Below the pieces are notes generated by a model. The model was not told where the DNA came from. It did not search any database and saw only the letters and a program-made list of their open reading frames with translations. A stretch of 58,958 nt of DNA from a virus (lineage: Duplodnaviria > Caudoviricetes), in the IMG/VR virus record IMGVR_UViG_3300032322_001673, positions 1 through 58,958 of that record. The stretch is one strand, 5' to 3'. Made by a program: the position numbers and the translations under genes. Every line of letters begins with the position of its first letter. Position 1 is the stretch's first letter. Shown here in pieces: positions 28,177 to 57,558 of the stretch.

Positions 28177-28522
28177 CTATTCTATCAAAAAATACTAATT
28201 CTTTACAAACATCTTGACCAATAATTGATTTATCTTTGTAATCACTTCCCTTTACCATTACGTCATGGATTGACACAAGATACTCTAATTCTTCATCTGT
28301 ATCAAATATGTATACGTTATCTACTGCTTTTAAATTAATTAGTAATGTTGATCTTTCTGCTTGATTATTGATAGGTCTAGATTCACCTTTTAATCTTTTA
28401 ACACGGTCATCACTATCAATTGCTACATTGACTTCATCACCTAAACTTTTTGCATAGTTTATTAGAGCAATATGCCCCTCATGTAATAAATCAAAAGTGC
28501 CATTTACAAATATTTTTTTCAT
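28127..28522 (-). CDS. Heptose-1-phosphate adenylyltransferase (RfaE domain II / HldC-like)
   Basis: NGTFDLLHEGH, LKGESRPIN, KGSDY, GFSTT. Confidence 0.88.
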   Translation of the reverse strand: MKKIFVNGTFDLLHEGHIALINYAKSLGDEVNVAIDSDDRVKRLKGESRPINNQAERSTLLINLKAVDNVYIFDTDEELEYLVSIHDVMVKGSDYKDKSIIGQDVCKELVFFDRIDGFSTTQKIQDIADRG

Positions 28523-28531
28523 ACTGTACCT

Positions 28532-29311: not shown

Positions 29312-29312
29312 A

Positions 29313-31285: not shown

Positions 31286-31968
31286 TAACGCTCCTTACCA
31301 TCTATGGTTTTTTTACGTCCTACAATTGTAGTATTTGCAATATCACTTTCATCATACGCATATAAACCTAATTGTATTGCAGGAATTATATCACTACGCA
31401 ACATAATATCCAATGATTCGCAAATACCGTATTTGATTACATATGATAGTGCATTTTTTGCTGCCCAAGGATCTATACTATAGGCATGCGCTCTGCAAAT
31501 AAAGTGATAGTTATTACCATTAGTGGCATGCGGTGGTGTTATTAGAACAGGCCAACCTTTTTTAGCCTGTTCATAACTTCCTAAATAATGTATTATTCCA
31601 GTTACTGGATGATCTCTAAGTTCTTTAAGCATAATTGCATCATGCTCAAGTATTATTATTGGTCTGTCAAGTTCAATGCAATGCGCCCATAAACTAATAT
31701 GGCTTAACGCAACACTTACTTCAGTAAGACTTAGTTCTTTATCGACCCATTTGATCCAACTAGTCCAAGTCGCATCTTTACTGTGATCTGGTTCAATAAT
31801 TGTGCCTGATGTTCCATCAAATGCATCCCATACTTTATATGGCATATTTAATGCAGCGAGGCTTTGTTGACACCTCGCTGACATTCTTTCACTTATTGGA
31901 TGATTTTTTAAAGTGATAATATAAGCAGATTCAATTGACAGATTGTAACTGTAATCTAACTTTAACAT
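31285..31968 (-). CDS. Glycosyltransferase family 25-like
   Basis: AYIITL, DAFDG, SHISLW..C, IILEHDA. Confidence 0.8.
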   Translation of the reverse strand: MLKLDYSYNLSIESAYIITLKNHPISERMSARCQQSLAALNMPYKVWDAFDGTSGTIIEPDHSKDATWTSWIKWVDKELSLTEVSVALSHISLWAHCIELDRPIIILEHDAIMLKELRDHPVTGIIHYLGSYEQAKKGWPVLITPPHATNGNNYHFICRAHAYSIDPWAAKNALSYVIKYGICESLDIMLRSDIIPAIQLGLYAYDESDIANTTIVGRKKTIDGKER

Positions 31969-33744: not shown

Positions 33745-36700
33745 TTAAGTTGCTTTACCTATTGCACCTGTATTTGATGTACCTGTGCTTGATGATAGAT
33801 ATGTATTGACACCAATTTGACTTGGTTCTGATCTATTGATTGTGTCATTTTGTCCAAGTTGTCCTGCATTATTAATTCCCCAAGCAAATAATCTGTCATT
33901 TGATGTAATAGCAGTTGTAAAAGAATTGCCTGCGTTTACTGATTTCCAAAGAATATTACCTACTTTAACTGGAATACGTGTAGTAGTACCTGCAGCAGCG
34001 TATTGGTTACCTAATTGTACAGGGCTTGAAAGTTGCACTCCCCAGAACCAGAAGGTTCCTAATTGACCTTGATTTGAGCTGCCCCAATTGAATAGTGTAT
34101 TGTTGCTTCTAATACCAGCCGAGTTGTTATTACCAGCAACCACTGAGGTCCAGCTGCTTGTGCCCACTTGCACAGGACTGCTTCTACTAACTGCAGTACC
34201 GTAACCTAATTGACCACTTGTTCCTAATCCCCACATAAACAATGCACCAGCAGTAGTTACTCCACCTGTAAACGATGATCCTGCTGAAATTGAACTAAAA
34301 TATGTAGGAGAACCTCCGCTTATTGACGCTCCCTGAGTCGTATAGGTAAGCAACGAAGTTTGCCCTGCTGTTATCGCACTTATATTAGTACCTGCACTTT
34401 GAGTAGCAGTTAGAACACTTGTAGGGACAGTAAAGTTACCTGTGTATACAGCTACACCTTTTACTATTCTGACGTTACTTATATTACCATTATAAGGTGT
34501 TCCAGTTTGTCCAGTAGCATCACCTCCCACGTATATGGCTTGTGCTCCAACATCACCTACTGCTGCAGCACTTGTATTTGTAGATTCAGCTATTCCATTT
34601 ACAAACATAGTCCAATTACTTCCTGATCTAACTACTGCTACATGATACCATGTATTATTTACAATTGTGGTTGTGCTTATTAGGAAATTAACATCAACTT
34701 GTATGCTCCTAACACCAAACGTTAATTTGGTAGGATAATTATTGTGTCTATCATTTAATTGCCATTTGCCAGCACCAAAATTACCGTTAGTTATTAATAT
34801 TGGGAAACTACTAGCTGCTCTGCTGTTAGTATAGAACCAAAGCTCAATTGTAAAATCTGAGGTACCTAATAAAAATACTGTACTTGATGCAGTTGCAAGT
34901 CTGTTTAGACTGTTTCCGGCAAATACACCTGATACAGCGCCAATAATAGGAACTATGCTAGTAGTGAAACTAGTAGCGTTGGCGGTGATCGTTATTCCAT
35001 TACCACTTGTGTCTAATACAGTAAGTGCTGCACCAACTAAAACAGGGCTACTTCTGTTTATTGTATCACCTGATGCATTAATATTTGTTAATCCTAATTG
35101 ACCATTTGCATTTAATCCCCATGTATATAGTTGACCAATTGGACCTAATCCTATCATATGTGTATCATAAACACTGACTTGTGTCCAACTACTGTTGCCT
35201 ATTTGAACTGGGCTTGATTTAGCAATAGTAGTACCGTCCCCTATTGCCCCACCTGTTCCAAAACTTCCCCATGTAAATAATAATCCATCACTACGTATTG
35301 CTGCACTTACACTATTCCCAGCACTTACTTTACTCCAACTACCTGCAGCAATTTGCACTGGACTACTTGGATTTACACTAATATAGTTGTTACCTATTTG
35401 GCTATAGTTAGATTTAGTGACCGTTTCCATAAATCCACTAATCTCGCCACCAGTATTAGAACCTGTTGCAAACATGGGTCCGTTTGTTCTTATAGCAAAT
35501 GTAGCTGCTGTTCCAGCATATACAGTTTGATAACCAACACTAGGACTTGCTGCTAACAATAACAATTGTGTATTTGCAACTGCAGTCAATGGAGATGCTG
35601 GCGGCGTAAAGTTAGCTGTATAAATTGCAGTGCCCTTTACAATGCGTATATTAGATACAAAGCCGTTTAAGAAGTTAGTGCTAGTATACCCACCTATAAT
35701 TAATGGAACAGTATTCAAACTTTGTGGTGTACCAACTATAGCGGTTGTAGATTGTAGTAACCCATTGGTGAATAATAGTATATTAGAACCATTTACAACT
35801 AATGCCAAATGTGTCCATTGGAACAATCCTACTTGTGTAGTACCAGTAATAGTATTACCAGCACCATTAAAATAGTAGAATGCAATTTGACCTATTGTGT
35901 TTAATCCTAACCCCCAATAAATTGTTCCTGCTGTTGGTGTCATGTTACCAATTATTGTATTTGCGCCAGTAAAGCTGGTTGGATAAACCCAAAATTCAAC
36001 GGTATAATTTGAACTCCACCAGTCAAAGTTAGCAGGAACATATGAAAGTTGCAGATAGTTTAAGTTTCCAGGTAAGAAAACAGAACTGCTACTAGTATAC
36101 AAGTTAAATGCATTTTGGACACGTACAGTACCAAAATTAGTTACTGTATAATTATTTGTGCTTGCATCCGTAATAGTTAATCCTTCTATACCTACCACTG
36201 TTGGACTTGATCTTGCAAGTGCATCATTTGTACCTAATTGACCTTCTGTGTTTCTCCCCCAAACATACAGTGTAGTTTCACTACGTGCTGCAGTATGAGA
36301 GAAACCAGCACTTACACTATTCCATGATCCTGCTAATATTGTTGGTGATTTAGTTTCATAATTAATACCTTGAACAAGTGTAGGACTACTACGGTTAAAG
36401 CTAGCTGCTAACGAATTTGCAAATTGACCTACGGTGCCTCCTCCCCAAATATACAACATACCAACTTGATTTATTGCACCACCTGTTATGTTTCCTGTAG
36501 TAATAACGCTATAACTTGTCCCTACAAACACAGGGCTACTTCTGGTTATAACGGTCATGTTTCCAACTTGGCCACTTGTTCCTAATCCCCATGCAAATAA
36601 TCTATTCGCAACATCTATTGCAACTGTTGTACTATGTCCTGCTCTTACAGATGTATAAGAACTTGTGCCTATCTGAACTATACTTGAGCGGATTACAGCA

Positions 36701-39700
36701 TCACTTGTACCCAACTGACCTGAACTATTAAGTCCCCAAGCCCATAATGTTCCATTTGAATTTATTGCCAATGAATAGCTTGTACCTGCGCTTGCAGCTG
36801 TCCAACTTGCACTTGCTGCTAATACTGGACTGATTGTATTTGTATTAAAGATGTTACCAATTAACACAGGACTTTGTCTATTGACAGTTGTATTATCTCC
36901 AATCTGACCACTTGAGTTTAATCCTAAAGTGTACAAGGTATTATTAGGATATGTTACAGCTACATGTGATTGACCAGTGGAAACTAAATTATAGTTGACA
37001 GCACCAGTAACATTTGTAGTTGAAGCTAAGAGTAACAATCCAATATTTGATGAAGTGAACGCATTTATATTTCCACCTCCACCGCCTGATGTAGTTAATG
37101 GAACAGTAGAGATTGTGAATGATCCTGTGTATAGAGCAGTGTTAGAAATTCTAAGATTACTTATGTATCCATTAATACCATTACCAACTGTTATGGTTCC
37201 TCCGTTGTACCCTCTACTACCAGTTCCTCCAAGCCCACCATACGCACCATTTGTTCCAGCGAACCAGCTATTATTACTTTGAACTGTAATTTGAAAGTAT
37301 GTCCAAGTGTTTAATGGGAAACTTGCAGTAGTAGCTACAGTAAAACCATTATAACTTCCGCCTGATGACGGAGATATATTAAACACTAAGTTCGAACCTG
37401 ACCATCCAATAAAATATGCAGATAAGCCGCCATCAGTATTAATATTATTAATTATTGTACCTCCGTATGAAAGAGGATAATACCAAAATTCAATTGTACC
37501 ACTTGGTGTATTTAAATTATTGTTAACGTTTGTTGATACGCTAAGTGAATTTGATCCAGTAAATAAACCAGACACTGCTCCGGCAAATGGAACAATATTT
37601 GTAACATATGACACTCCGCCGTTATTTGTAATTGTATTATTATACTGACTACCGTCCAATAATACAGAGGTTGCACCGAGTAATGTTGGACTTGATCTAG
37701 CGATAGTATCACTAAAACCTAATACTGCATTGGAGTTAAGTCCCCAAGCATAGGTCTGTCCTAAACTATTTCTTGCATATGAATAACTTGTGCCAGCACT
37801 GACACTTGTCCAACTATTAGGTAAACCAAATCCAACTTGAATTGGACTTAACGTTCCACTGTTTATATGTGTGCCATTACCAACCAACACAAATGAATTT
37901 CTATTGCCACCACCTGCTTGTCCTAACTGCCCTGAACCATCGCCACCTTGCGTATACATCTTGTTATTCGCAACCCAACTAATACTAGCAGCCTCAGTTG
38001 TGAATAATAACAATGAAGTTTGAGTGCCTGTGATTGCACTTATGTTAGTGCCTGAACTTTGTGTTGCTGCTAGTGGACTTGTAGGTACCGTGAATGTTCC
38101 TGTGTATACAGCAACTCCCTTAACTATTCTTAAATTACTTAAATATCCGTCAAATGAATAACCAATTGTATCTATAAGTCTACCAACATACTGTAATGTA
38201 GTTTGTGCGTTCAATGCAGTAGATTGACTTGTAAATGCAGTGTCTAATACTCCATTCACCCATAATGAAATTGTTGTTCCGCTACGTGTCGCTGCTATGT
38301 GTGTCCAAACACTGTTAAGCACCGATCTACTTCCTGTTAATGCTCCGCCGGTAAAGAAATCTACTCTAGCAGTACCACTTGTTGTTCTTAAACCAAATGC
38401 CCATGCCGTTGCAACTGCGCCTGCTCTAGCATCAAAAATACCTGAATAAACAGCATTTATAGATAATGGATAAACCCATGCTTCAACAGTAAAATCTCCT
38501 GTACCAAAAGATAACGGCGTTTGAGCGTTAATCGTAAGTGCTGGGTTATTTACTGTCTGTAGCATTGATACCGCGGTTGCGAAAGGTGTTACAGAAGTAT
38601 TGTATCTTATTCCAGTTCCAACTTTTGTAACAGTAGTTGCAAATGTACTTACGTCTAATGGTATCCAATCTGTTACACGTACTTGTGCCCAGTGACTGTA
38701 ACCAACACTTAATACTTGATTAAAGCTTTGATAATTTGTCATTAATACAGGACTCGATCTTGTTATCGCATCACCTAAACCTAATTGTGATGATGTGTTA
38801 AGTCCCCAAACAAAAATATCACCATTGCTTCTTCTTGCTGCACTAAAACTTTGTCCTGCCCAAACTTGTGCATATCCACTAGTGCCTGGTGTTACTTGTA
38901 CTGGGCTTGTAGTATATGTGTTAAGTGTTTGTCCACTAGCTCCTACTTGTACAAAATTTGAACGATTTATATTACTTGCAATACCTATTTGACCTACATT
39001 ATTAGTACCAGTGCCATATAGTGCATTAGTGTTATCTACACCATGTATAGTATTTTTTGCTGAAGTTTGTGTGTAACTAAATCCTGTAATATTTGAAGGT
39101 GTATTAAGTGTTAACAATGCGGTTTGCGCTGCTGTTACAGCATTTGTAAATGTACCTGAACTTTGTGTCGCAGCAAGAGGACTTGTTGGTACTGGGAAAC
39201 TTGCAATATAAGGCAACTGATTTCTAACTAATCTTACGTTAGATACATGACCTATAAAAGGATTAGTGCCTGTTTCTTCTGCTCCAATGGTTACTTGTCT
39301 TGCTGGACTGTATCCCGAACCCCAAGTGTAACTAGTTAAAATTTCAACTAATCCATTTATATATAAAGTTAACACTGTTGTTGATACTTTATGTAAAGCT
39401 ACATGATACCATTGATTAGGTAAAATGACAGTAGTACCAGTTACGGGATTAGGAGAAGCGTTTGTACCAGTTCTAACAAGTAACACATTGCTTGCATTTA
39501 ATGATAATGAGAATGGTCCGCCAACACCTGAATTCCAAGCTGCAATTATAGTTTTAGTAGTAGCACTAGCGATTGAAGTTGGATAGAACCAGCATTCTAT
39601 TGAATAAACACTAAAATCTCCTACATTTAATTGCGACAACGAAAGTGGTGTGTTGATGTAACTACCAGCACCAGTAAACTGAACGCTAAAGGTGGTAGGC

Positions 39701-51700: not shown

Positions 51701-54700
51701 CAACTGTTACCTAATATAGTTGCAGGAGATGTAAGCACTAGTAATGATGTTTGTCCTGAAGTAATTGCACTAATATTATATCCTGCACTTTGTGTTGCTG
51801 TTAAATTAGTTGTAGGTGGGAAAAACTCTCCAGTGTAAACAACTACACCTTTTACTATACGTACATTAGATACATAACCATTAAACGTTGTACCCTGCAC
51901 TGCGCCTATATTAACTTCAAATCTGTTGTCTGCTTGCGGTGTGCCTACTTTTGCTGCAGTAGCAACTAAAACTCCATTATGATATAAGCGTATTATACCA
52001 GTGGAATTGGTATGTGTCATTGCAATATGATGCCAGTTGTTTATATTACAACTACCACCTTGTGCTACAGTTACGGCTCCGCCGTTGAAATAATAAAAAT
52101 AAACATTACCATTAGTGTTAACACCAAACGCCCAATATGTACTAGTTGACCATGCTAATCCATGACTTAATACTAGTGGGGTTGAGTTACTCGGACTTAC
52201 AGCCAACACCAATGGATAAATCCAACATTCCATTGTGTAGTCAGCATCGTACCAAACTGCCATGTTTGCGTTATATGGCATTTCCATACCCCAAGTTAAA
52301 CCTGGTGCACAAAACGCACTTACACTATTTGCAAATGGTACAATTGTTCTTTCTATATTCTGTCCATATGCTCTAATTTGATTGTTAAAAGTACTTTGAT
52401 CTTGTATTGTATAACCTATTTGTGTTGGTAATGATTTACTAACGTTAAAATTATCACCTGTTTGGAATGATGTGTTTAACCCCCAACCGTATAATCTATT
52501 ATTAGAATCAATAGCCAGTGAAAAATTATTACCTGCACTTACTTGACTCCAGCTACTACTGCTGACTAGTGTAGGACTATTTCTGTCTACAGCATTGCCT
52601 AATCCTAATTGACCTGAACTATTTAAGCCCCATGCAAAAAGTGAGCCATCACTACGAATAGCTAGTGTATGACTGAATCCTGTGCTAACTTGACTCCAAC
52701 TTTGCGGTAATGTCACTAATCCTATTGCTGTGCTATTACCCCATGTCCACAATGTTGTATCACTACGTATTGCTAATACGTGATCAAATTCTGCTGCTAC
52801 TGCTAGCCAACTACTTGCATTTAATTGTATAGGACTACTACGATTAATTGTATCATTTTGACCTAACTGTCCACTTGTGTTTAATCCCCAACCATACAAT
52901 AAATTATTTAAATCAATGGCTACACTAAAACTACTAGCTGCTTCTACAGTAGTCCAGCTACTACTACCAACTTGCGCTGGGCTATAATTTTGTGCTGTTA
53001 CTCTAGCTCCTACTTGTACTGGACTTGAGAAAACAGTTGTTACTAAGCCTACATTGTCAGGTCCCCAAACTAATCCAGCATAGTTTGAAGTTATTGTTGA
53101 TGCAGGACCAACTCTTGTGTAGTTTGTTGCGGCTCCTATTTGTATCGGCACTGAGGCAGCGTTAAAGTTTGCAAAATTTATATTTTGAGCAATTAAACCA
53201 TTGTTATTGGTTCCCCATACCCATAATGCGCCGGTTGTTGTAATACCGTAACTTGAATCACTATGTGTTGCAACCTGTGACCAGCTATTTGTTCCTATTT
53301 GTACTGGGTTTGAAATATTATTTCCCGAAGGCGGTGTTCCATTGCCCCATGGAGCTCCCCAACCAAATGCTGCACGATCTGTTGTTCTGATTGCTATTAA
53401 ATGACTCGCACCTGAACTCACTGTTGTCCAACTAGTTGTATTAAATGGAGATGCTAACAATACAGGGTTACTGCGGTTAACACCAGGTTGACTATTACCT
53501 AACTGTCCTATATTATTTCTACCCCACGTGTACATTATGGAGTCAGTGCGTAATGCAGCCATATGGCTATAACCAACACTTACTAAAGTCCAACTACTTG
53601 CATTGAACGGTGATGCTAATAGTACAGGGCTTGATTTGTTTATGGTAGTATTATCACCTAATTGCCCACTTGAATTATTACCCCATGTGAATAATATATT
53701 ACTTGAATTTAATGCTGCTGTGTTGCTTAACTGTGTGCTAACTTGATTCCAACTACCAGTGACTTGTACAGGACTACTACGGTTAATAGTATCATTCTGA
53801 CCTAGTTGACCATTACTATTATCACCCCACATCCAGAGTGTTCTATCTGTTTTAATCGCAGCTTTTGCGAAAGTAGATTGATATATTGGTGCAATACTAG
53901 CCCATTCATTTGTACCTATTTGTACAGGACTTGATCTAAAAATTGTTGTTCCGTCACCTGGATTACTTCCCCAACTCCATAGCGTACCGTCTGCTCTTAA
54001 TGCAAGGCCTCCTGCAATAGCTACATAAGATGGATTAACATCTGCTATTCCATTTTGTCCAAATGTGTTATTACCCCAACCAAACAATCTACCTACTGCA
54101 TCAATACCTAATGTTTGATCGACACCGTTACTAATTAATGTCCAACTACTTGCGCCTATTTGTACAGGGCTTGATTTATTAATACTTGTACCATCACCTA
54201 ATTGACCACTAGAATTAAAGCCCCACGCATATAGTAAATTATTGTTATTAGTTGCGAATGATGCACTATTACCTGCAAATACACTAGTCCAACCTGAGCC
54301 GGCAATGTTTACCGGACTATTTTTTAATGTGACCGTCAAATCTCCAACCTGTCCCTGAGCATTTGCACCCCAAGCCCACAATGTATTGTCAGATTTAATT
54401 GCAAGTGTGTTTTGAGCACCTGCACTTATTGTAGTCCATGATTGAACTTCTGTTACAAGGCCAATCGCATTAAAATTACCCCATGTCCAAAGTGTATTAT
54501 CACTGCGTATAGCTAAGACATGATCTAGCCCTGTGCTAAGAGTTAGCCAGCTACCTGAAGCAGTTTGAATTGGACTACTTCTACTTGTTATAGTAGAGAT
54601 ACCCATTTGACCTGATGTGCCTAATCCCCAGGCCCATAATGTTCCGTCACTTCGTTTAGCTACAAAGAATCTATCTCCTGCATCAACTTGACTCCAACTT

Positions 54701-57558
54701 TGTGCACCTGTTGAAACAACTGAAGATAAGTTAACTGCTGTTAGAAGATAAGTTTGTCCTGTAGTAATAGCACTTATATTAGTCCCTGAACTTTGTGTTG
54801 CAGTTAACGTACTTGTAGGTACGGTAAACGCACCCGTATAAACTTGTACATTATAAACTATTCTAGCGTTTGAAATATATCCATTGAGGCCAGTTGTGTC
54901 AACAAAAAATCCAGATGGGTTAGTTGCAAAGAAATTTGCACCTATATAAAGATTAAACACTGCTGCAGTGGTAAAAGGATTTACTATTGTTCCTGCCGTT
55001 ATTATCTGAGTTCCGTCTAAAAATACATCAGTTAAATTTGCACTTGCTCCGGTTCTTCTTACCCATGCTATGTGATACCAAACAGATGTGCTAGTAATTA
55101 AATTTGATGCACTTGAAGTTTGAGTCGTATTTCCCGGAGAAGTTATTGACCATACAGTAAAACCGTTACTTGTGTTTCTATATATCCAAGCACCGTTTCC
55201 ACCGCTAATATTCAATCCAAAAATACCTGCTGTTGTACCTAAATCATTAAATTTAACCCATGCTTCTGCAGTGAATCCTACATTGGTGGCTCCAAAATTT
55301 ACTGGATTAGCAGCTAATGCTGAACTAACATAATTAGTACCATCAAAATAGTATGAAATAGGTGTTCCGGTTAGAGTTGGAGTAGTTCCACTGTATATTA
55401 CAGTGTTACGTGTTAATGAATATGCATAAGAACTTGTATCAATAAAATTGTAACTTGTTATATTAATTGATGCAAGATTTGTAGCCAGTAATAATCTTGT
55501 TTGACTTGCGGTTATTGCACTTATATTAGTACCGGCACTTTGAGAAGTAGTTAGTACACTTGTAGGTGGTGTAAAAGCTCCGGTGTATACCGCAACTCCA
55601 CTAACAATTCTTAAATTAGAAATATAACCTAATAGGAACCCAGTAGTAAAACTCCAATTACCGCCGCCAGAGAAATTAGCTCCTATCCATAATGGATATT
55701 CTGCAAGAGACCAACCATCTATTGCACCGTTACTAATAACTATGGTACCATTTACATAAACATTAACAACTGTACTCACTTTAACAAAAGCAATATGGTA
55801 CCAAATTGATGTGCTAGTAAATATGTTGCCAGCAGAATCAACTTGACCACCTATGCCGCCACCTGCCTTAATGCTTAATCCATTGTTGGAAAGTCGTCTA
55901 AAAATAATTCCCTGTCCACTAGAACCAATGGGTGTAGGAATATTGAATGCTACTAAACCTCGTTCTGTACTTAAATCATCAAATTTCACCCAAAATTCAC
56001 ACGTGAAGGTTGATCCACCTGCACCTAAATTTACACCTGTTGTTGTTTCTATATATGGACCGCCATTAAAGTATAATGATACTGGATTAGCACTAAGATT
56101 GGGAATTTCAACAATTGTGTTAGTTGTTCCAACACTAGTTACTGTATTAATATAGGTACTTGTATCTATTGGATTTCCGCCTGAACCAAGTTGCACTGGA
56201 CTAGATTTACTTACTACCTCTGAATTACCTAACTGACCAGCTGTTGAATCCCCCCAAATGTATATTGAGCTATCGCTACTTCTTATAGCAGCAGTGTTTG
56301 ATGTACCTGTAGTTACTGAAGCCCAACTAGTTGCACTGAATGGAGAAACTAATGTTACAGGACTTGATCTATTAAGTGTACTATTATTTCCTAATTGACC
56401 TGCGTTATTAAGACCCCATACTAATAGTGTGCCGTCTGCACGTATTGCAGCACTATTGCTATATTTTGATGAAACTTGTGTAAAACTACTGCTGGTTACT
56501 TGCACAGGACTTGAACGTGCAATTGTAGTATTAGGTTGTCCTAACTGACCAACTGCGTTGTTGCCCCATGTCCATACTGTACCATCACTTCTTAAAGCTG
56601 ATGTATGTTGTCCGCCTGCACTTAGTTGTGTCCAACTATATATTGTTGTTGGTATTGGAGCGAAAGCACTATTAAAATTACCCCAAACATACAGATTACC
56701 TAAAACATCTATGCCTACACTGTGGTCACCTAACCCTCCTGCACTTACACTTGTCCAACTACTAGTGCCTATTTGTACAGGGCTTGATCTCCAACCGGCG
56801 TCTAATTGATCATTTAATCCTAACTGGTATAAGTTATTTAAACCCCAAGTAAACAAACTATTAGTTGAATCTATTGCTAAGTAGTATTGATTTCCTGCAG
56901 AAACTTGTATCCAACTTCTTCCACTTCTTGCAGGTATTTGAATAGGACTGCTACGACTCACTACAACAAGATTACCCATTTGACCTGCACTACCTAAGCC
57001 CCAAATAAATAATTGCCCAGTGTTTGTAATCGCAGCAGAGTTATAATAACCTGCACTAATTTGTGTATAATTACTTGCACTACCTAATTGTACAGGACTT
57101 GATCTGTTAAGTGTTGTATTATCACCTATTTGTCCTTCAGCATTTCTTCCCCATAACCAAACAGTGCCGTTAGCACGTAAGCCAATAAAATGATCGCCAC
57201 CTGTTGCAATGCTAGTCCATGATTGAAAATCTGTAAGAACTGCAGTGCTAGGTTGATTACCCCAAACAAAAAGTCTGTTTGTTGTTGTTAGTGCTGCACT
57301 ATGATCAAACCCCGCGCTTACTTGTGAAAAACTACTTGTAGAAATTTGTACAGGTAATGATTTATTTGTTGTTGTACCATCACCCACTTGGAAAACATTA
57401 TTAGTGCCCCAAGCAAAAAGTAAATTATTACTTTGTATACCAGTTGTAAAGTTGTTTAGGGCACTTACTGCGACCCAACTATTGTTGTCAACTTTTTGTG
57501 GTTCTGGTAAATTCTGAGGTAATCTGTTTCCTAAAATAACTGGTGAAAAAATTGGCAT
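33745..57558 (-). CDS. Giant (7937 aa) RCC1-repeat beta-propeller protein with 15 LamG/ConA-like domains; probable virion fibre/adhesin
   Basis: About 86 repeats SWxQVSAG..H..AI..DG.LWAWG.N..GQLG...NRSSPVQ; 15 modules with FTxExW, W(Y)H, ISNxR; no obvious signal peptide. Confidence 0.9.
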   Translation of the reverse strand: MPIFSPVILGNRLPQNLPEPQKVDNNSWVAVSALNNFTTGIQSNNLLFAWGTNNVFQVGDGTTTNKSLPVQISTSSFSQVSAGFDHSAALTTTNRLFVWGNQPSTAVLTDFQSWTSIATGGDHFIGLRANGTVWLWGRNAEGQIGDNTTLNRSSPVQLGSASNYTQISAGYYNSAAITNTGQLFIWGLGSAGQMGNLVVVSRSSPIQIPARSGRSWIQVSAGNQYYLAIDSTNSLFTWGLNNLYQLGLNDQLDAGWRSSPVQIGTSSWTSVSAGGLGDHSVGIDVLGNLYVWGNFNSAFAPIPTTIYSWTQLSAGGQHTSALRSDGTVWTWGNNAVGQLGQPNTTIARSSPVQVTSSSFTQVSSKYSNSAAIRADGTLLVWGLNNAGQLGNNSTLNRSSPVTLVSPFSATSWASVTTGTSNTAAIRSSDSSIYIWGDSTAGQLGNSEVVSKSSPVQLGSGGNPIDTSTYINTVTSVGTTNTIVEIPNLSANPVSLYFNGGPYIETTTGVNLGAGGSTFTCEFWVKFDDLSTERGLVAFNIPTPIGSSGQGIIFRRLSNNGLSIKAGGGIGGQVDSAGNIFTSTSIWYHIAFVKVSTVVNVYVNGTIVISNGAIDGWSLAEYPLWIGANFSGGGNWSFTTGFLLGYISNLRIVSGVAVYTGAFTPPTSVLTTSQSAGTNISAITASQTRLLLATNLASINITSYNFIDTSSYAYSLTRNTVIYSGTTPTLTGTPISYYFDGTNYVSSALAANPVNFGATNVGFTAEAWVKFNDLGTTAGIFGLNISGGNGAWIYRNTSNGFTVWSITSPGNTTQTSSASNLITSTSVWYHIAWVRRTGASANLTDVFLDGTQIITAGTIVNPFTTAAVFNLYIGANFFATNPSGFFVDTTGLNGYISNARIVYNVQVYTGAFTVPTSTLTATQSSGTNISAITTGQTYLLTAVNLSSVVSTGAQSWSQVDAGDRFFVAKRSDGTLWAWGLGTSGQMGISTITSRSSPIQTASGSWLTLSTGLDHVLAIRSDNTLWTWGNFNAIGLVTEVQSWTTISAGAQNTLAIKSDNTLWAWGANAQGQVGDLTVTLKNSPVNIAGSGWTSVFAGNSASFATNNNNLLYAWGFNSSGQLGDGTSINKSSPVQIGASSWTLISNGVDQTLGIDAVGRLFGWGNNTFGQNGIADVNPSYVAIAGGLALRADGTLWSWGSNPGDGTTIFRSSPVQIGTNEWASIAPIYQSTFAKAAIKTDRTLWMWGDNSNGQLGQNDTINRSSPVQVTGSWNQVSTQLSNTAALNSSNILFTWGNNSSGQLGDNTTINKSSPVLLASPFNASSWTLVSVGYSHMAALRTDSIMYTWGRNNIGQLGNSQPGVNRSNPVLLASPFNTTSWTTVSSGASHLIAIRTTDRAAFGWGAPWGNGTPPSGNNISNPVQIGTNSWSQVATHSDSSYGITTTGALWVWGTNNNGLIAQNINFANFNAASVPIQIGAATNYTRVGPASTITSNYAGLVWGPDNVGLVTTVFSSPVQVGARVTAQNYSPAQVGSSSWTTVEAASSFSVAIDLNNLLYGWGLNTSGQLGQNDTINRSSPIQLNASSWLAVAAEFDHVLAIRSDTTLWTWGNSTAIGLVTLPQSWSQVSTGFSHTLAIRSDGSLFAWGLNSSGQLGLGNAVDRNSPTLVSSSSWSQVSAGNNFSLAIDSNNRLYGWGLNTSFQTGDNFNVSKSLPTQIGYTIQDQSTFNNQIRAYGQNIERTIVPFANSVSAFCAPGLTWGMEMPYNANMAVWYDADYTMECWIYPLVLAVSPSNSTPLVLSHGLAWSTSTYWAFGVNTNGNVYFYYFNGGAVTVAQGGSCNINNWHHIAMTHTNSTGIIRLYHNGVLVATAAKVGTPQADNRFEVNIGAVQGTTFNGYVSNVRIVKGVVVYTGEFFPPTTNLTATQSAGYNISAITSGQTSLLVLTSPATILGNSWVTVSAGDTHALATRTDGSLWSWGVNNVGQAGRLNTAQSFTLITTNSSSFNSNGIRNDGILFIWGDNDQGQIGTGDILARSSPVQIGTSSWTSISTGRFHTLAIRNDGTLWAWGLGTSGQLGVNNTTNTGSPVQVTSISESWTVVSAGVTHSVGITETGKLYAWGNNTNGILGINSTINRSTPVQITTIAGSWSAVTAGYSHTAGITTTGTAYAWGLNTSGQLGNNTIINRSNPTLLATPFDVSSWTIVSAGLDFTMARLTNGLAYGWGINSNGQLGNNTSINRSNATLVSTVGLISWTTISAGGVFATAIATDSTLWAWGQNNLGQLGNGETIDRSRPTQVRSLTVTDGGTNLLPMAATSTLAVTTSIIPFANTVSALFSGIDTLNTAATSGNFIFGTGDFTIELWVYLRSVSANQNIYDQRPAGSNGPFPTIYFRLATVSITYFVNVVDAINSSTVSVNTWYHVAVVKSSTSTRMYINGTQAGSTYTDPNNYNNGANRPLLGADATNPATVFLSGYVSNVRVVRGVAVYTGNFTVPTSPLTATQSAGVNISAITAGQTSLLLLTDTNSVTLGNSWSQVGAGQSHVVARQSDGTLWAWGANASGQMGYNDAINRSSPVLVGNIPDMNRWSPVQVASSSWSQVDAGISFSSGIDSAGQLYGWGWNNNRQVGDTTTVNKFSPVVIASGSWTKVSSGASHSLAIRSDGALFGWGAGPSLNINNVTPFSWSQVSNGGRGSFTAAIRSDGSLWTWGLGTIGQLGVSDVISRSSPVLVSTSSWTSVNVGTEFVAAIRLGGNIFVWGRNSDGQLGFNDVISRSSPTQLDTNSWSSISASEFNLAAIRNNFLYVWGRNDQGQLGDGTTISKSSPVQIAGSWNSVSSAYFYTLAINSRNNLFGWGLNTSFQLGNNTTINRSSPVLITASASFTSVVGGEFNSAAIDTNNKLWLWGRDLNILIDPNSWTQVAYTDSSAMAIRSDGRLFAWGLNSSGQLGSNDAINRSSPVLVGPAQSSVSWSQISVQTSNAYAIDSIGNLYGWGQNNLGSVGDNTTINRSNPTVLFSGGTKFLGLQQAAFIDTVGINTISTAGGTIPTITRDIGSYAGYAVSFTGNGYLQVPLSGLDLFSIPASTNWTFECWIYLNSIPTGTTGAVQNQFVIASRNWNYGVTATSTWAFSVQQNASVSWRYGFTGTASGILAETPALSISTGAWTHLAFVKTSANLVRIYINGSLSTSTTDINPMSSTTGDLFIGIASNLSAASFFNGFISDLRIVSGVAVYTGIGFTVPSRPLATTQSSGANISAITGAGITAVASGFQFGMALTNTGILYMWGQNTAGQLGNNSTINRSSPIIITANGGGSFVSIAGGNSFATAVDSNGRLYAWGLNSGFQLGNTNAINRSMPVQIAPNVSWATVSAGWSHAGARDTSGRLYLWGPGAVTNLSTETFSWTQISVGEGSVAHVLAIRSDGLLYAWGSNAVGQLGDNSAVNRSSPTLVAGVFGIPGSWYGSWTNVTAGGSHSVARNSDGRIYTWGLNSSGQLGLNDTINRSNPTLVSSLTAPTNFVEQISQSTATVNAFVSFVTDNTLYPGAIALSTVSTPNSGFASTPANANLLMTGDFTIEMWFRSTNNGAVNDSLRLTGTTGWRFRTTIASPAQLEFIGSGGVPTLSIASIIAVNTWYHIAVTRSGSNMNLWVNGSVQSIAIYSGNVGDATNPLIYASGDGGGAAGANQNLNNVRIINGTALYTTALFPTGMVPYRGPFTPLFGSQTVVLALTTGNTLIAPATNTLSAGELHTALTFSDGRLFTFGSNNTGQLGDGTTINRSSPVLVGSIANSWTTVSSGLSYTIALRNNNSMWSWGQNTLYQLGDGTTLAKSSPVLISGTTSFTQLSIGANHALAISSNLNLWTWGDVNSVILTNTESPTSWTQIAPGSAHTLGIRSDGILFAWGSNTSGQLGDGTTVTKSSPVVIGNSRYTFIGAATNNSFAVRTDGTLWAWGGNTTGILGDNTTITKSSPVQVVAAGVSFVSVAGGNFHAAGIDTLGRIYAWGSGGLGQTGFNNTINRSTPLQLGTNSWISVSAGISHTVAIRNDYTLWGWGQNSVNQLGDSTSINRSSPVQVDANKKIATSWTQISSFFDHNLAVDQNFGLYTWGNSTAISLIIQPQSWAQLSAGGSHTLAIRSDGFLYAWGAGTGGQLGTNDAVNRSSPVLVGGTNSWNAVAAGSNFSLAIRSDGSLWSWGSNTSNQLGDGTSINKSSPVNIAAGNIFTKIAAGGAHGLALRDNLSVWSWGLNNVGQLGTGTTVNRTTPASFTIVANGDQVYAGASFAAIINTNLNLYTFGLNSSGQLGLGNTINRSIPTQVTTGFFGNLVQLVSLGFDHVLGKEVGSGLIFGWGNNNRGQLGINNTINRSAPVQIGSGSWVTVSAGQNWSMGLLGISGFTSNGIPYAWGLNDSNQLGDGTSINRSNPVLVTGAGTSSYTQISAGWIHGAAVQNTGLMYAWGLGNNGAIGDNLATATRSVPTLVGAPNSLNTGFNIPNRYRFPAQVAGSSYVSVSAGQSTSVVTDELGMVYAWGLGTSGQLGDNTVISKSFPVVLFPQTFTVLDVSSYAYTLTRTGTTYTTNTFPVTGAVSGYFNGNGDNIAMPVAANITALSGEYTVEAWFYLASFAPADGYQHLLLGTTFSFGIFNQRIWLTNNAVGLLNDPNPVVINTWYHYALVNSAAGNYCRIFRDGVQVASGISRDFSGSTGISRIGSNNSNGQFWFGLISNMRVVKGVAVYTGNFTVPTTVLTATQSAGTNISAITAGQTALLTYTTLGASLSNISTPFTTKAQTAGSSSFGYNSSGLYVWGLNTSGQLGNNTAVNRSSPTLVTNSGLYTQLGIPTIINNVLSWSTVSAGASHSIAKTTNEQVFAWGLNTSGQLGDNTAITKSSPVLINASSPVLLSSTVISAGRDLSFMINSANLLFAWGLNTTGQLGIYDALSRSRPVQLNLAQQLDTGTTIPTLVQRNNIFLNDLSTSNLRLTFDNDAVPISFGPFTPSSSVQLNLNKTLGQINRADGIILPATSNFNVGSFTDYTIEGWIHLVATPAGTGAIFYTMANIGQQAWSRLYVTTTSLVFEYGSGTWAWTTSISGTITGYILNTWYHAAMVKSGSTVSLYWNGSRVATNASFVITPGYGGSLYIGSNGRDWDNNGTYTRGYISNFRMLAGTALYSGTSYTIPTGNFTAITNTVFLLGSTSFTPTVPSYTQVGLGISYTMALRNDNTLWTWGLNNNGQLGDATSINKSSPVQVAFGNAQWLTIAAGLSTNAAIATGQGTRNKLFLWGMNSGNQMLFNDVVNRSSPTLVYASTPTQIPSPFLHDTSWTNVSIGLSFSIARRSDTALMGWGLNTSGQFGDNSLVNSSRSNPVFVGVNTYLDESSNGVLPSSVQGAPKFVDFSPFATNPYDTTTLGGSMQFNLVDWIQYPWNTRYDIGTNSASMEVWAYWNTFRTSISYMTLFGQNSGAFATIKIWSNLFGSDASVRYSVNDDTVRGETAIVTNTWYHLVVTITGGVVRFFVNGVLRDYVTGINYVINRQEAFIFGNEDSGYFNGYLSNFRFCNGSIPTSYQTVSSTIGATIFTPPTSPVTTTSQGATSGDVVLLCFRGITPTTNNWISANGGTTTFITSNNLLNKTGLGTTGQIADGAALTRSNPIVVGNPDRFFAPNTGILSPVLVTSGSWTNISAGNSTSSALRSDNTLWVWGLNTNGQTGDYTSTTRSPPLAIQVFNVTDSSSSNQTIYNTGLGYTTAVIPFAGAVSGQFSYFNTYLQLTSPSNLAFGSSNFTIELWLYPTSIVGNNQSTYVVLDWRPFSTQGLFPTLYGNNVGFYYFTNSGNLIAGPALNLNTWYHVAVQRQNSITRMFINGLLVGTPAADTNVYTIGTGTVNRPALGTSGFSLNDASFIGYISNFRVVNGTTAYNPGFTVPTTSLTTLANTLETNVTLLTCQSATIIDNSVYRNVTPLTVNGATTVQTLSPFTPTTFSVQFTGAGSYINTPLSLSQLNVGDFSVYSIECWFYPTSIASATTKTIIAAWNSGVGGPFSLSLNASNVLLVRTGTNASPNPVTGTTVILPNQWYHVALHKVSTTVLTLYINGLVEILTSYTWGSGYSPARQVTIGAEETGTNPFIGHVSNVRLVRNQLPYIASFPVPTSPLAATQSSGTFTNAVTAAQTALLTLNTPSNITGFSYTQTSAKNTIHGVDNTNALYGTGTNNVGQIGIASNINRSNFVQVGASGQTLNTYTTSPVQVTPGTSGYAQVWAGQSFSAARRSNGDIFVWGLNTSSQLGLGDAITRSSPVLMTNYQSFNQVLSVGYSHWAQVRVTDWIPLDVSTFATTVTKVGTGIRYNTSVTPFATAVSMLQTVNNPALTINAQTPLSFGTGDFTVEAWVYPLSINAVYSGIFDARAGAVATAWAFGLRTTSGTARVDFFTGGALTGSRSVLNSVWTHIAATRSGTTISLWVNGVLDTAFTSQSTALNAQTTLQYVGRLIDTIGYSFDGYLSNLRIVKGVAVYTGTFTVPTSPLAATQSSGTNISAITGTQTSLLLFTTEAASISWVANNKMYTQGGDGSGQLGQAGGGNRNSFVLVGNGTHINSGTLSPIQVGFGLPNSWTSVSAGTSYSYARNSLGQTYAWGLNSNAVLGFSDTIARSSPTLLGATSVLLDGSQYNNTITNNGGVSYVTNIVPFAGAVSGLFTGSNSLSVSTNVNNNLNTPSGTIEFWYYPLSYGGTIINNINTDGGLSAYFIGWSGSNLVFNISPSSGGSYNGFTVATTASFPLNTWTYFQITVQSNNSWFAGTNGAYGGLGGTGSRGYNGGTITVGNGINGYISNLRISNTALYTGSFTISTVPLTTSGGGGGNINAFTSSNIGLLLLASTTNVTGAVNYNLVSTGQSHVAVTYPNNTLYTLGLNSSGQIGDNTTVNRQSPVLIGNIFNTNTISPVLAASASWTAASAGTSYSLAINSNGTLWAWGLNSSGQLGTSDAVIRSSIVQIGTSSYTSVRAGHSTTVAIDVANRLFAWGLGTSGQVGNMTVITRSSPVFVGTSYSVITTGNITGGAINQVGMLYIWGGGTVGQFANSLAASFNRSSPTLVQGINYETKSPTILAGSWNSVSAGFSHTAARSETTLYVWGRNTEGQLGTNDALARSSPTVVGIEGLTITDASTNNYTVTNFGTVRVQNAFNLYTSSSSVFLPGNLNYLQLSYVPANFDWWSSNYTVEFWVYPTSFTGANTIIGNMTPTAGTIYWGLGLNTIGQIAFYYFNGAGNTITGTTQVGLFQWTHLALVVNGSNILLFTNGLLQSTTAIVGTPQSLNTVPLIIGGYTSTNFLNGFVSNIRIVKGTAIYTANFTPPASPLTAVANTQLLLLAASPSVGYQTVYAGTAATFAIRTNGPMFATGSNTGGEISGFMETVTKSNYSQIGNNYISVNPSSPVQIAAGSWSKVSAGNSVSAAIRSDGLLFTWGSFGTGGAIGDGTTIAKSSPVQIGNSSWTQVSVYDTHMIGLGPIGQLYTWGLNANGQLGLTNINASGDTINRSSPVLVGAALTVLDTSGNGITITANATSFTTSIVPIIGAVSGVFAGNSLNRLATASSTVFLLGTSDFTIELWFYTNSRAASSFPILITNGNFGAGKWQLNDRHNNYPTKLTFGVRSIQVDVNFLISTTTIVNNTWYHVAVVRSGSNWTMFVNGIAESTNTSAAAVGDVGAQAIYVGGDATGQTGTPYNGNISNVRIVKGVAVYTGNFTVPTSVLTATQSAGTNISAITAGQTSLLTYTTQGASISGGSPTYFSSISAGSSFTGGVTTAGALFMWGLGTSGQLGYGTAVSRSSPVQVGTSSWTSVVAGNNNSAGIRSNNTLFNWGSSNQGQLGTFWFWGVQLSSPVQLGNQYAAAGTTTRIPVKVGNILWKSVNAGNSFTTAITSNDRLFAWGINNAGQLGQNDTINRSEPSQIGVNTYLSSSTGTSNTGAIGKAT
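34340..55620 (-). repeat. Dispersed conserved LamG-tail repeat (VYTGxFTVPTxxLTATQSxGxNISAIT), 8 copies
   Basis: Copies near 34376, 38036, 43334, 47813, 50042, 51767, 54770, 55517. Confidence 0.8.

What the first reader, a model, noticed from the sequence alone, without database searches (positions are those of the whole stretch)
36330..57270. Nested (Russian-doll), branched beta-propeller architecture in a 7937-aa protein
Seen: 11 blades are cut short after LxxWG, lack the final SPVQ strand and jump to a new blade ('openers', e.g. WGNQPSTAVLTDFQ ~57250, WGNSTAIGLVTLPQ, WGRDLNILIDPN). Other blades carry a second SP-strand ('closers', e.g. SSPVLVGNIPDMNRWSPVQV ~49820, SSPTLVQGINYETKSPTIL ~36350). 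Treating these as brackets, all 11 enclosed units total exactly 7 blades, the RCC1 propeller number. Outermost unit 4+3; seven spine units 5+2; innermost unit 7 contiguous (~44120-45237); two side branches of 7 (~52990-54030 and ~49820-51588). Inference: the chain runs out leaving partial propellers, turns near 44-45 kb and returns to complete them. This gives a double-linked, branched chain of propellers with both termini at the base, instead of beads on a string. I do not know of this topology being described.
Basis: partly seen in the sequence, partly recalled or inferred. Interest (0 to 1): 0.92.

Follow-up and report, generated by a model that had tools for sequence, protein, structure and literature searches.

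The report
Nested RCC1 propeller tree, phage protein
A 7,937-residue phage protein is built from about 86 RCC1 blades whose short and long linkers pair like brackets around groups of exactly seven, which points to seven-bladed propellers spliced inside one another, many levels deep, and not strung in a row.

Summary
Blade linkers fall into three length classes. Eleven are short and lack the inner "SPV" strand; these are openers. At least 13 are long and carry two such strands; these are closers.

An untuned stack parse gives 7 blades in 9 of 11 bracketed units. The other two sum to 14. None of 20,000 label shuffles reaches this. Relatives with other depths and other splits (4+3, 3+4, 5+2, 6+1, 3+2+2) follow the same rule: 74 of 136 split units equal 7, against a null of 9%. 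In one relative the brackets close 14 of 14 across two adjacent genes.

Our ORF is likewise preceded by an RCC1 ORF, separated only by a conserved TAA-ATG placed inside a repeat. The nest therefore continues upstream, and "both termini at the base" is not right.

Structure prediction did not settle the topology. Two AlphaFold2 models were unusable. A 5+2 two-chain fold gave only weak support.

The closest solved precedent is Trm734, where one WD40 propeller sits inside another. I found no paper describing deep recursion. This scan has noted the same design in other phage genomes.

The parts
33745..57558 (-). Giant ORF, 7,937 aa: about 86 RCC1 blades plus 15 LamG domains
   Evidence: (Pfam RCC1 E=0; Laminin_G_3 7.8e-71 and 3.7e-109, 6+9 stretches)
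57559..58956 (-). Upstream ORF, open at the contig end (466 codons seen): Gly-rich region, a D-strand-like 'GEAWRG', then 4 RCC1 blades (U1-U4). A double-SP linker follows U3
57556..57561 (-). TAA-ATG gene boundary inside one RCC1 repeat (..GQLGL* MPIFSPVILG..). With the next 27 residues it forms a 36-37-aa closer-type linker
   Evidence: The same TAA-ATG is in L001, L002 and L003. The same protein starts and ends are seen in P0004/7/8/11/18/19/37 and P0005/P0015
36370..57219 (-). Nested region proper, residues 114-7063: 11 bracketed units, 77 blades
57220..57258 (-). Opener 1 (residues 101-113, 13 aa, no A strand)
56635..56679 (-). Opener 2 (residues 294-308)
54439..54477 (-). Opener 3 (residues 1028-1040)
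54028..54072 (-). Opener 4 (residues 1163-1177; keeps a GQ.G loop but has no SP strand); opens side branch 1178-1518
52699..52737 (-). Opener 5 (residues 1608-1620)
51586..51630 (-). Opener 6 (residues 1977-1991); opens side branch 1992-2574
49525..49566 (-). Opener 7 (residues 2665-2678)
48829..48861 (-). Opener 8 (residues 2900-2910)
47380..47418 (-). Opener 9 (residues 3381-3393)
45955..45999 (-). Opener 10 (residues 3854-3868)
45235..45273 (-). Opener 11 (residues 4096-4108); opens the innermost unit
44158..45234 (-). Innermost contiguous 7-blade unit (residues 4109-4467)
53005..54027 (-). Side-branch unit of 7 blades (residues 1178-1518)
49837..51585 (-). Side-branch unit of 7 blades with one LamG inside (residues 1992-2574)
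52957..53061 (-). Closer (residues 1500-1534, two SP strands); closes side branch 1
49786..49902 (-). Closer (residues 2553-2591); closes side branch 2
44086..44229 (-). Closer (residues 4444-4491); closes the innermost unit
43066..43188 (-). Closer (residues 4791-4831); closes the 5+2 unit 3869-4095 + 4481-4812
   Evidence: 5+2 co-fold
42724..42831 (-). Inferred closer hidden at a LamG junction (residues 4910-4945, second P-containing strand before the LamG). Post hoc assignment
   Evidence: this LamG linker is 276 aa against 249-267 for the other single-LamG linkers without a split blade
41653..41766 (-). Closer (residues 5265-5302)
40591..40722 (-). Closer (residues 5613-5656)
38875..39006 (-). 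Closer (residues 6185-6228)
37813..37944 (-). Closer (residues 6539-6582). It follows a blade split by a LamG between its C and D strands (6276-6538)
36805..36921 (-). Closer (residues 6880-6918)
36325..36441 (-). Closer (residues 7040-7078); closes the 4+3 unit
35338..35460 (-). Closer with no opener in this ORF (residues 7367-7407)
   Evidence: the counterpart in P0018 closes a unit opened in the upstream protein
33949..34080 (-). Closer with no opener in this ORF (residues 7827-7870)
47197..47298 (-). Ambiguous 34-aa linker (residues 3421-3454) with one SP strand only. The length rule calls it a closer; I read it as a false call
42901..42993 (-). Ambiguous 31-aa linker with two tandem SSPVL (residues 4856-4886). 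The length rule does not count it as a closer
54703..56184 (-). Two LamG domains inserted after an A strand (residues 459-952)
51709..52413 (-). LamG (residues 1716-1950)
49981..50673 (-). LamG (residues 2296-2526)
47803..48537 (-). LamG (residues 3008-3252)
46375..47055 (-). LamG (residues 3502-3728)
43255..43953 (-). LamG (residues 4536-4768)
42007..42723 (-). LamG (residues 4946-5184)
40795..41508 (-). LamG (residues 5351-5588)
39079..40455 (-). Two LamG domains (residues 5702-6160)
37969..38673 (-). LamG inserted between the C and D strands of a blade (residues 6296-6530)
37000..37674 (-). LamG (residues 6629-6853)
35539..36189 (-). LamG (residues 7124-7340)
34306..35028 (-). LamG (residues 7511-7751)

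Best explanation
**What it is.** The giant protein is a recursively nested, branched array of seven-bladed RCC1 propellers.

**How a unit is built (inferred).** A blade has four strands: A (..SPVQI..), B (SW..VSAG), C and D (..LW.WG).
- At an opener the chain leaves a host propeller straight after a D strand. It enters the B strand of a new propeller, whose first blade therefore lacks its A strand.
- After seven blades of that new ring, a closer supplies two A strands in a row. The first completes the first blade of the inner ring and acts as its velcro. The second starts the next blade of the host.
- Whole propellers thus sit in the D-to-A connection of other propellers.

**Extent in this ORF.** There are nine levels: one 4+3 unit, seven 5+2 spine units (two of them carrying a 7-blade side branch, so 3+2+2), and one innermost 7.

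**LamG domains.** Fifteen LamG domains are further insertions, mostly in A-to-B loops. They do not disturb the count.

**Link to the upstream gene.** The nest does not end at the ORF. The N-terminal SPVILG strand and two C-terminal closers most likely complete propellers opened in the protein of the upstream gene. That gene is separated only by a conserved TAA-ATG, so two polypeptides would be locked together by shared propellers.

**Function (inferred).** The product is a rigid, double-linked, tree-like fibre studded with lectin-like domains, used by a T4-like phage to bind host-surface glycans.

**Shown versus inferred.** Shown: the linker classes, the bracket grammar, and its conservation. 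Inferred: the 3-D pairing, the two-chain locking and the function.
For: - **Linker lengths are trimodal** in 8 family proteins: 11-21, 23-33 and 34-48 aa. In the window there are 11 short and 13 long linkers.
- **Long linkers carry two A-type strands.** All 13 carry two strands with the conserved proline or its position. The short ones carry none. Spare and missing A strands therefore balance only if they are paired.
- **Untuned stack parse.** Window 9/11 units of 7, and the other two sum to 14. P0011 9/9, P0018 8/8, P0019 7/7. 0 of 20,000 label shuffles reach the observed count in any of the four.
- **Pooled over 134 distinct token strings** from 183 proteins or ORFs: 149/283 clean units equal 7 against a null mean of 5.2% (maximum 9.1%, 200 shuffles). 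For split units alone, 74/136 equal 7 against a null mean of 8.9% (maximum 24%, 300 shuffles). The partitions are 4+3 (29), 5+2 (29), 3+4 (5), 6+1 (5), 3+2+2 (4) and 2+5 (2).
- **Depth varies and stays balanced.** Between 7 and 14 matched pairs occur among relatives. Relatives differ by whole '(7)' side branches or by matched out and return arms.
- **Two-gene closure.** The L003 upstream ORF plus P0018 closes 14 of 14 units at 7 across the boundary. It leaves a base ring of 6 blades plus one split blade.
- **Boundary conserved.** The TAA-ATG is present in 4 of 4 DNA junctions read: the window, L001, L002 and L003 (L001 and L003 are identical over the stretch read).
- **Co-fold.** A two-chain fold (ESMFold2) of the 5 outgoing blades with the matching 2 returning blades scored ipSAE 0.40 with best control 0.00, 'weak support'. 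That mark was reached by 58 of 80 solved complexes and 2 of 110 mismatched pairs. At 0.60 or under, only 7 of the 80 solved complexes and both of those mismatches passed. The runs agree in at least 93% of contacts and partner pLDDT is at least 76. A pass of this kind can come from likeness to solved RCC1 propellers.
- **Solved precedent for one-level insertion:** Trm734 (PMC6847430, passages read).
- **Context.** A phage-like contig. In the cultured cyanophage S-SRM01, small RCC1 genes lie next to the long-tail-fibre gene, together with similar sugar-modifying genes.
Against: - **No structural confirmation.** AlphaFold2 on window residues 3867-4815 gave mean pLDDT 39.1 and pTM 0.35. On a LamG-free 4(7)3 construct of a relative it gave 44.5 and 0.44.
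Its only partly ordered stretch is residues 1-365. That is the five outgoing blades plus the first 2-3 inner blades, which is the naive consecutive window. Somewhere in the model a distorted RCC1-like ring is present (TM 0.52, rmsd 8.3 A to UVR8, which gives no ranges).
- **The second model** has its better stretch in the bracketed inner unit (about 187-480). The model does not superpose on a propeller (rmsd about 19 A).
- **The complex score is only 'weak support'.** Any 5+2 RCC1 fragments might complement each other.
- **The automatic parse is imperfect.** P0003 7/13, P0004 6/14, P0007 4/10, P0008 5/10 under rule 1. Results shift with the opener threshold (under 20 aa, 22 aa or less).
- **A more distant group does not give all sevens.** It gives 7,7,7,8,10,10,7.
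- **Two-level constructs.** 2 of 11 fully bracketed ones sum to 14 (L030/L036, same token string).
- **One window unit needs a post hoc closer.**
- **Ring position gives no help.** Blade similarity between split units and contiguous units shows no peak at shift 0.
- **Function is untested.** Virion association and glycan binding were not tested, and no structural genes lie in the window.
Confidence: 0.75

Rival explanations
1. Beads on a string. Propellers are made of consecutive blades. Short and long linkers are only loop-length variants inherited through tandem duplication of 5-blade and 2-blade cassettes.
For: - In AlphaFold2 model 1 the only partly ordered part is the first ~365 residues, which cross an opener.
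- Giant RCC1 proteins without any brackets exist: P0017, P0020, P0031, P0036, P0039.
- The blade total is a multiple of seven under either model.
Against: - It does not explain why bracket-matched arms sum to 7 with six different partitions.
- It does not explain why openers and closers stay balanced from 7 to 14 pairs.
- It does not explain why relatives differ by whole '(7)' units.
- It would leave 11 blades with no inner strand and at least 11 orphan strands.
- The AlphaFold2 model has mean pLDDT 39 and is not evidence.
Confidence: 0.1
2. The same grammar, but complementation happens between chains. Outgoing arms of one copy pair with returning arms of another copy (3-D domain swapping), or of a different protein, giving a mesh or an oligomer and not a self-contained tree.
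For: - The family already splits propellers between two gene products at the conserved TAA-ATG boundary.
- The 5+2 arms co-fold as separate chains with weak support.
Against: Openers and closers are only 11-48 aa long. That fits intramolecular nesting, where neighbouring rings are joined by both linkers. Nothing here tests oligomeric state.
Confidence: 0.1
3. Not a functional folded protein: a decaying or misassembled repeat array.
For: A single in-frame TAA separates it from the upstream ORF. The contig is metagenomic.
Against: - A 23.8-kb frame without a stop.
- The TAA-ATG is conserved at 56% protein identity.
- 383 homologs of 4,365-13,890 aa.
- Blades are diverged, so there are no near-identical repeats to misassemble.
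- The exact protein is seen on 2 contigs.
Confidence: 0.03

Closest known systems
Trm734 (yeast; WD40 triple propeller, solved) and, as I recall, the DDB1 / CPSF160 / SF3B3 class
   Same: One complete seven-bladed propeller is inserted into a blade of another. An N-terminal strand closes the last propeller (PMC6847430, passages read). The same principle applies: a host ring interrupted by a guest ring.
   Different: - WD40 repeats, not RCC1.
- The insertion point lies inside a blade (between strands c7 and d7), not between whole blades.
- Depth is 1-2, not 9 or more.
- No branching, no LamG decoration, no split over two genes.
- The DDB1-class topology is recalled. Only the existence of its three WD40 domains is in the passages I read.
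RCC1-like domains (RCC1, UVR8, HERC1/HERC2 RLDs, RPGR)
   Same: The repeat family: Pfam RCC1, RCC1_2 and WD40_RLD far above cut-off. They are also the best Foldseek matches of both models. Seven blades per ring.
   Different: Known RLDs are seven contiguous repeats. Here 8 of 11 units are split by other units. There is no evidence of Ran or GEF function.
LamG / concanavalin-like lectin domains of phage fibre and surface proteins (Pfam PF13385)
   Same: 15 domains match Laminin_G_3. tblastn also finds LamG-annotated proteins in cyanophages.
   Different: Here they are loop insertions inside propeller blades, roughly one to three per ring.
Small single-propeller RCC1 proteins of cultured cyanophage S-SRM01 (Kyanoviridae)
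   Same: The best named phage match: 34% identity, 13 places. The genes sit beside the long-tail-fibre gene and sugar-modifying genes.
   Different: 344-405 aa, one propeller each as annotated. I did not test them for brackets.
Earlier notes of this scan on other phage genomes (e1-6045740, e1-6068661, e1-5668092, e1-6006589 and others)
   Same: The same bracket grammar of RCC1 blades around sevens. Some notes report nesting across gene boundaries.
   Different: Other DNA. This window adds the 15 LamG insertions, a nine-level spine within one ORF, and the closing strand at the very N-terminus.

Membership tests
RCC1 repeat / RCC1-like domain (Pfam PF00415, PF13540, PF25390) | Repeats of about 50 aa matching the family HMMs above the curated cut-off | tested here: met
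   RCC1 scores 1027.9 and 560.2 bits (cut-off 21.7) with 35+20 stretches. WD40_RLD scores 1433 and 825.8 bits (cut-off 150).
RCC1 repeat / RCC1-like domain | Seven contiguous repeats forming one ring | tested here: not met
   Only 3 of the 11 bracketed units are contiguous in sequence (one of them with a LamG inside). The other 8 are split into 2 or 3 segments by other units.
RCC1 repeat / RCC1-like domain | Guanine-nucleotide exchange or Ran/chromatin binding | not testable with these tools
The 'regulator of chromosome condensation' label in PHROGs is only a family name.
Laminin_G_3 / LamG (PF13385) | Match to the family HMM above cut-off | tested here: met
   237.6 and 361.9 bits (cut-off 27.6), 6+9 stretches.
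Propeller-in-propeller proteins (Trm734 / DDB1 class) | WD40 repeats | tested here: not met
   One search lists only RCC1-type families. 'WD40_RLD' is the Pfam name of the RCC1-like domain.
Propeller-in-propeller proteins (Trm734 / DDB1 class) | A complete ring inserted so that the host ring's parts flank it in sequence | tested here: inconclusive
   The sequence grammar supports it. The AlphaFold2 models are unusable. The 5+2 co-fold gives weak support.
Propeller-in-propeller proteins (Trm734 / DDB1 class) | An N-terminal strand completes the last ring | tested here: inconclusive
   - The giant ORF ends with strands A, B and C of a blade and no D.
- Upstream proteins of relatives start with a D-type strand (..KLFTWG).
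- In the window a D-like 'GEAWRG' precedes U1.
- No structure is available.
Phage tail fibre / receptor-binding protein | Part of the virion; binds the host surface | not testable with these tools
   Only context is available. Small RCC1 genes lie beside the long-tail-fibre gene in S-SRM01. No structural genes were recognised in the window.

The most novel reading that the evidence does not exclude
A new class of protein architecture. It is a recursive grammar in which whole seven-bladed propellers are spliced into the inter-blade links of other propellers, nine or more levels deep. The array has side branches and lectin-domain insertions. It is closed across two separately translated polypeptides by strand complementation. 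The result is a megadalton, double-linked tree that serves as a phage adhesion fibre.
Probability: 0.65. Interest if true: 0.9.

Novelty: new variant of a known kind. Interest (0 to 1): 0.8.

Why it matters
Discontinuous domains are usually one insertion deep. If this reading holds, proteins can be built by deep recursion of a single fold.

That raises sharp folding questions. An outer ring can only close after thousands of residues of inner rings have been made.

It would also give a rigid way to chain propellers, since neighbouring rings are joined by two linkers. And it would tie two giant polypeptides together without a covalent bond.

The family is common. At least 584 stretches in IMG/VR matched in one scan, so a large share of unexplained giant genes in T4-like aquatic phages may be of this kind.

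The bracket rule is simple enough to use for annotation. It could also be used to design split-propeller scaffolds.

Tried and rejected
**AlphaFold2 on window residues 3867-4815.** This construct is five outgoing blades, the inner seven, a blade, a LamG and a blade. With 5 orthologous rows (A1) it gave mean pLDDT 39.1. Not usable.

**AlphaFold2 on the LamG-free 4(7)3 construct L013:3732-5783.** With 9 further rows (A3) it gave 44.5. Not usable.

**Foldseek on both models.** It confirms only the RCC1 family and gives no aligned ranges. The VIA-align library that would give ranges was not on the machine.

**Complex prediction.** Weak support only. It does not discriminate matched from mismatched arms.

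**Ring-position similarity test.**
- The nested assignment beats random cyclic shifts (0 of 2,000).
- This is driven by tandemly related arms.
- Split units compared with contiguous units show no peak at shift 0.
- I therefore dropped it as evidence.

**Interleaved reading of the outer blades.** I considered that the two surplus C-terminal closers mark an interleaved pair of propellers (3+4 and 5+2 among the outer blades). The simpler reading from L003+P0018 is that they close units opened upstream. The window cannot decide, because the upstream gene runs off the contig.

**Fetching the longer contig failed.**
- It was later closed.
- Exact-pattern scans of viral contigs and metagenome contigs with the window's last bases found nothing.

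**Phage database searches.** Megablast of the gene against named phages found no match. The nrd genes gave only distant hits.

**Literature.** Four full-text searches found no paper on nested or inserted RCC1 propellers:
- RCC1 / beta-propeller / nested / phage;
- six phrasings of 'nested/inserted propeller';
- RCC1 / LamG / phage / giant;
- RCC1 / tail fiber / cyanophage / beta-propeller.

I saw listings and abstracts only, except for passages of PMC7247149 (RCC1 genes in phAPEC6, no topology) and PMC6847430. Supplementary files were not consulted.
Full report
**What is there.** The window is the whole 58,958-bp contig that is held. Its minus strand carries one ORF, 33745..57558, of 7,937 codons.
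- Pfam finds RCC1-type repeats throughout: RCC1 at 1027.9 and 560.2 bits, and WD40_RLD at 1433 and 825.8 bits.
- Pfam also finds 15 Laminin_G_3 domains (6+9 stretches).
- The neighbours are phage-like: nrdA and nrdB, glycosyltransferases, methyltransferases, a nucleotide-sugar epimerase, and a run of radical-SAM genes.
- No named phage matches at the DNA level.
- The best named protein match is Synechococcus phage S-SRM01 at 34%. There, small RCC1 genes lie beside the long-tail-fibre gene and a similar set of sugar-modifying genes.

**Checking the observation.** I built a blade HMM from 33 regularly spaced repeats of the protein itself. I then measured every linker from the end of the outer strand (..WG) to the start of the next blade.
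- Eleven linkers are 11-19 aa and contain no 'SPV' strand.
- Normal linkers are 24-32 aa.
- Thirteen are 35-48 aa and contain two such strands.
- Two are ambiguous: 34 aa at residues 3421-3454, and 31 aa with two SSPVL at 4856-4886.
- In eight family proteins the linker lengths are clearly trimodal.

**Why brackets are a reasonable reading.** From the repeat consensus a structural blade is A (SPVQI), B (SW..VSAG), C and D (LW.WG). This strand assignment follows the published RCC1 fold as I recall it, and no usable model confirmed it here.
- A short linker goes from D straight to B, so the following blade has no A strand.
- A long linker carries one A strand too many.
- The books balance only if each spare strand completes a blade that lacks one.
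- LamG domains mostly sit after an A strand and before the B strand of the same blade, so they are neutral. One LamG splits a blade between C and D (residues 6276-6538).

**The count.** I used a naive stack parse. Linkers of 22 aa or less push. Linkers of 34-60 aa pop. LamG is neutral. Undetected blades in 61-145-aa linkers are guessed from length.
- The window gives unit sizes [7,7,1,7,7,13,7,7,7,7,7].
- The 1 and the 13 sum to 14. They become 7+7 if the 34-aa linker is not a closer and if one closer lies at a LamG junction (residues 4925-4945). This is a post hoc choice, and I flag it as such.
- Shuffling junction labels within the protein never reaches nine sevens (0 of 20,000; mean 0.51, maximum 6).
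- The units are one 4+3, seven spine units (five 5+2 and two 3+2+2 with a seven-blade side branch), and an innermost contiguous seven at residues 4109-4467.

**Homologs.** One search returned 383 proteins of 4,365-13,890 aa, of which 120 were listed.
- Close relatives share the head 'bb(bbbb(' and the tail ')b[LamG]b)bb..bb)b' but differ in depth.
- Under the same naive parse, P0011 gives 9/9 units of 7, P0018 8/8 and P0019 7/7. Each leaves nine outer blades and two surplus closers.
- Others parse less cleanly: P0003 7/13 (13/13 if closers that would close fewer than seven blades are skipped), P0004 6/14, P0007 4/10, P0008 5/10.
- The causes I could see are extra long linkers in outgoing arms, a false blade call inside a LamG, and threshold effects (compare).
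- A more distant group gives 7,7,7,8,10,10,7.
- Giant RCC1 proteins with no brackets at all also exist: P0017, P0020, P0031, P0036 and P0039.

**IMG/VR loci.** Three scans of IMG/VR brought 156 loci.
- Many carry LamG-free proteins with other partitions. L013 reads 4(4(4(4(4(7)3)3)3)3)…, L010 has 3+4, 5+2 and 4+3 in one chain, and L113 has three separate (7) insertions in one ring.
- Of 11 fully bracketed two-level constructs, 9 sum to 7. The other 2 (L030 and L036, same string) sum to 14.
- Over 134 distinct token strings, 149 of 283 clean units equal 7 (null mean 5.2%, maximum 9.1%).
- Among split units alone, 74 of 136 equal 7 (null mean 8.9%, maximum 24%). Six different partitions occur.
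- These strings are related to one another, so the counts are not independent events.

**The gene boundary.** The upstream ORF (57559..58956, open at the contig end) ends ..YAWGQDTSGQLGL. The giant ORF begins MPIFSPVILG directly after the TAA, in frame. The stop therefore lies inside one RCC1 repeat.
- The same TAA-ATG is present in L001, L002 and L003, which are 56% identical (L001 and L003 are identical over the stretch read).
- Seven family proteins start with Met and 2-5 residues before the SP strand. P0005 and P0015 end with ..GQLG(I)L.
- This is therefore a conserved two-gene arrangement and not an error.
- The boundary linker (9+27 aa) has closer length.

**Closure across two genes in a relative.** I joined the token strings of the L003 upstream ORF and of P0018. 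P0018's first residues match the ORF downstream of the boundary in L001 and L003. The L003 upstream ORF starts with a D-type strand followed by an opener.
- The join closes 14 of 14 units at seven across the boundary.
- It leaves a base ring of six blades plus one split blade.
- For the pair P0015 + P0019 the same exercise gives 10 of 18. The failures are nearly all in the poorly tokenised P0015 part.

**What this means for the window.** By analogy, four closers have no opener in what is visible: the U3 junction, the boundary, and residues 7367-7407 and 7827-7870. They should be matched upstream of the contig end.
- The visible upstream part shows a Gly-rich stretch of about 240 aa before 'GEAWRG' and blades U1-U4.
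- The closest relative has plain blades at that position instead.

**Structure prediction.** Both AlphaFold2 jobs failed to give usable models: mean pLDDT 39.1 and 44.5.
- In the first, the partly ordered stretch is the first ~365 residues, which cross an opener. The model contains a distorted RCC1-like ring (TM 0.52, rmsd 8.3 A).
- In the second, the better stretch is the bracketed inner unit. The model does not superpose on a propeller (rmsd about 19 A).
Neither supports nesting.

**Two-chain fold.** I folded the five outgoing blades (residues 3867-4098, 11-row alignment) together with the two returning blades including their LamG (residues 4476-4815, 12 rows).
- ipSAE was 0.40 (0.41, 0.36, 0.40), the best control 0.00, and the verdict 'weak support'.
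- That mark was reached by 58 of 80 solved complexes and 2 of 110 mismatched pairs. At 0.60 or under, only 7 of the 80 solved complexes and both of those mismatches passed.
- The runs agree in at least 93% of contacts and partner pLDDT is at least 76.
- Such a pass may reflect likeness to solved RCC1 propellers. It does not distinguish matched from mismatched arms.

**Comparison with what is known.** Trm734 is a solved case in which one WD40 propeller is inserted between strands c7 and d7 of another, and an N-terminal strand closes the third (PMC6847430, passages read). I recall the DDB1 class as similar.
- The present family uses RCC1 blades.
- It inserts between whole blades.
- It recurses nine or more levels, branches, carries LamG insertions, and spans two polypeptides.
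- Four literature searches found no description of this.
- This scan has noted the same grammar in other phage genomes. Those are unchecked notes and not independent evidence. One of them gave me the Trm734 lead.

**Verdict.** The nested reading is the best-supported explanation (about 0.75). It rests on sequence grammar and its conservation, not on a structure. The fibre or adhesin function is inference from domain content and context.

Noticed in passing
window 57556-57561 and 57559-58956 (-): The giant ORF and the upstream RCC1 ORF are one continuous repeat frame broken only by TAA-ATG. The boundary is conserved in relatives. The giant protein's first strand probably completes a propeller of the upstream protein.
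   Followed up: yes
window about 58240-58956 (-): The upstream ORF has a Gly-rich stretch of about 240 aa (runs of G, a 'VKMWGAGGG' motif) before its RCC1 blades. No Pfam hit appeared when the 435-aa ATG-started form of this ORF was scanned. The closest relative (L002) has plain RCC1 blades at that position. It may be another inserted domain.
   Followed up: partly
window 37813-38733 (-), residues 6276-6582: One blade is split by a LamG between its C and D strands, unlike the other LamG insertions, which lie between A and B. P0018 has a hidden blade after a LamG at the matching place.
   Followed up: partly
window 5194-11270 (+): Five of the six consecutive ORFs scanned here hit radical-SAM PHROG families, with a QueC-like gene nearby at 11931-12782. 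This is an unusual density for a phage contig.
   Followed up: no
window 26266-33683 (-): Directly downstream of the giant gene lies a sugar- and methyl-modification cluster: methyltransferase-like 571 aa, GT25, GT2-like, methyltransferase, PfkB-like kinase, epimerase. A similar set flanks the RCC1 and tail-fibre genes of S-SRM01. It may modify the fibre.
   Followed up: partly
P0023, P0024, P0026, P0029, P0030, P0032: A more distant group (start MSITRSSPVQV, end ..GGFIKNI) also nests, but the naive parse gives units of 8 and 10 as well as 7. These are either mis-tokenised or a different ring size.
   Followed up: no
L113, L114, L138: 1,408-aa ORFs with pattern 2(7)2(7)1(7)1: one host ring carrying three separate inserted propellers. 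They are compact test cases for structure work.
   Followed up: no
window 42986-43459 (+): A 157-aa ORF lies antisense inside the giant gene. It is most likely a chance frame.
   Followed up: no
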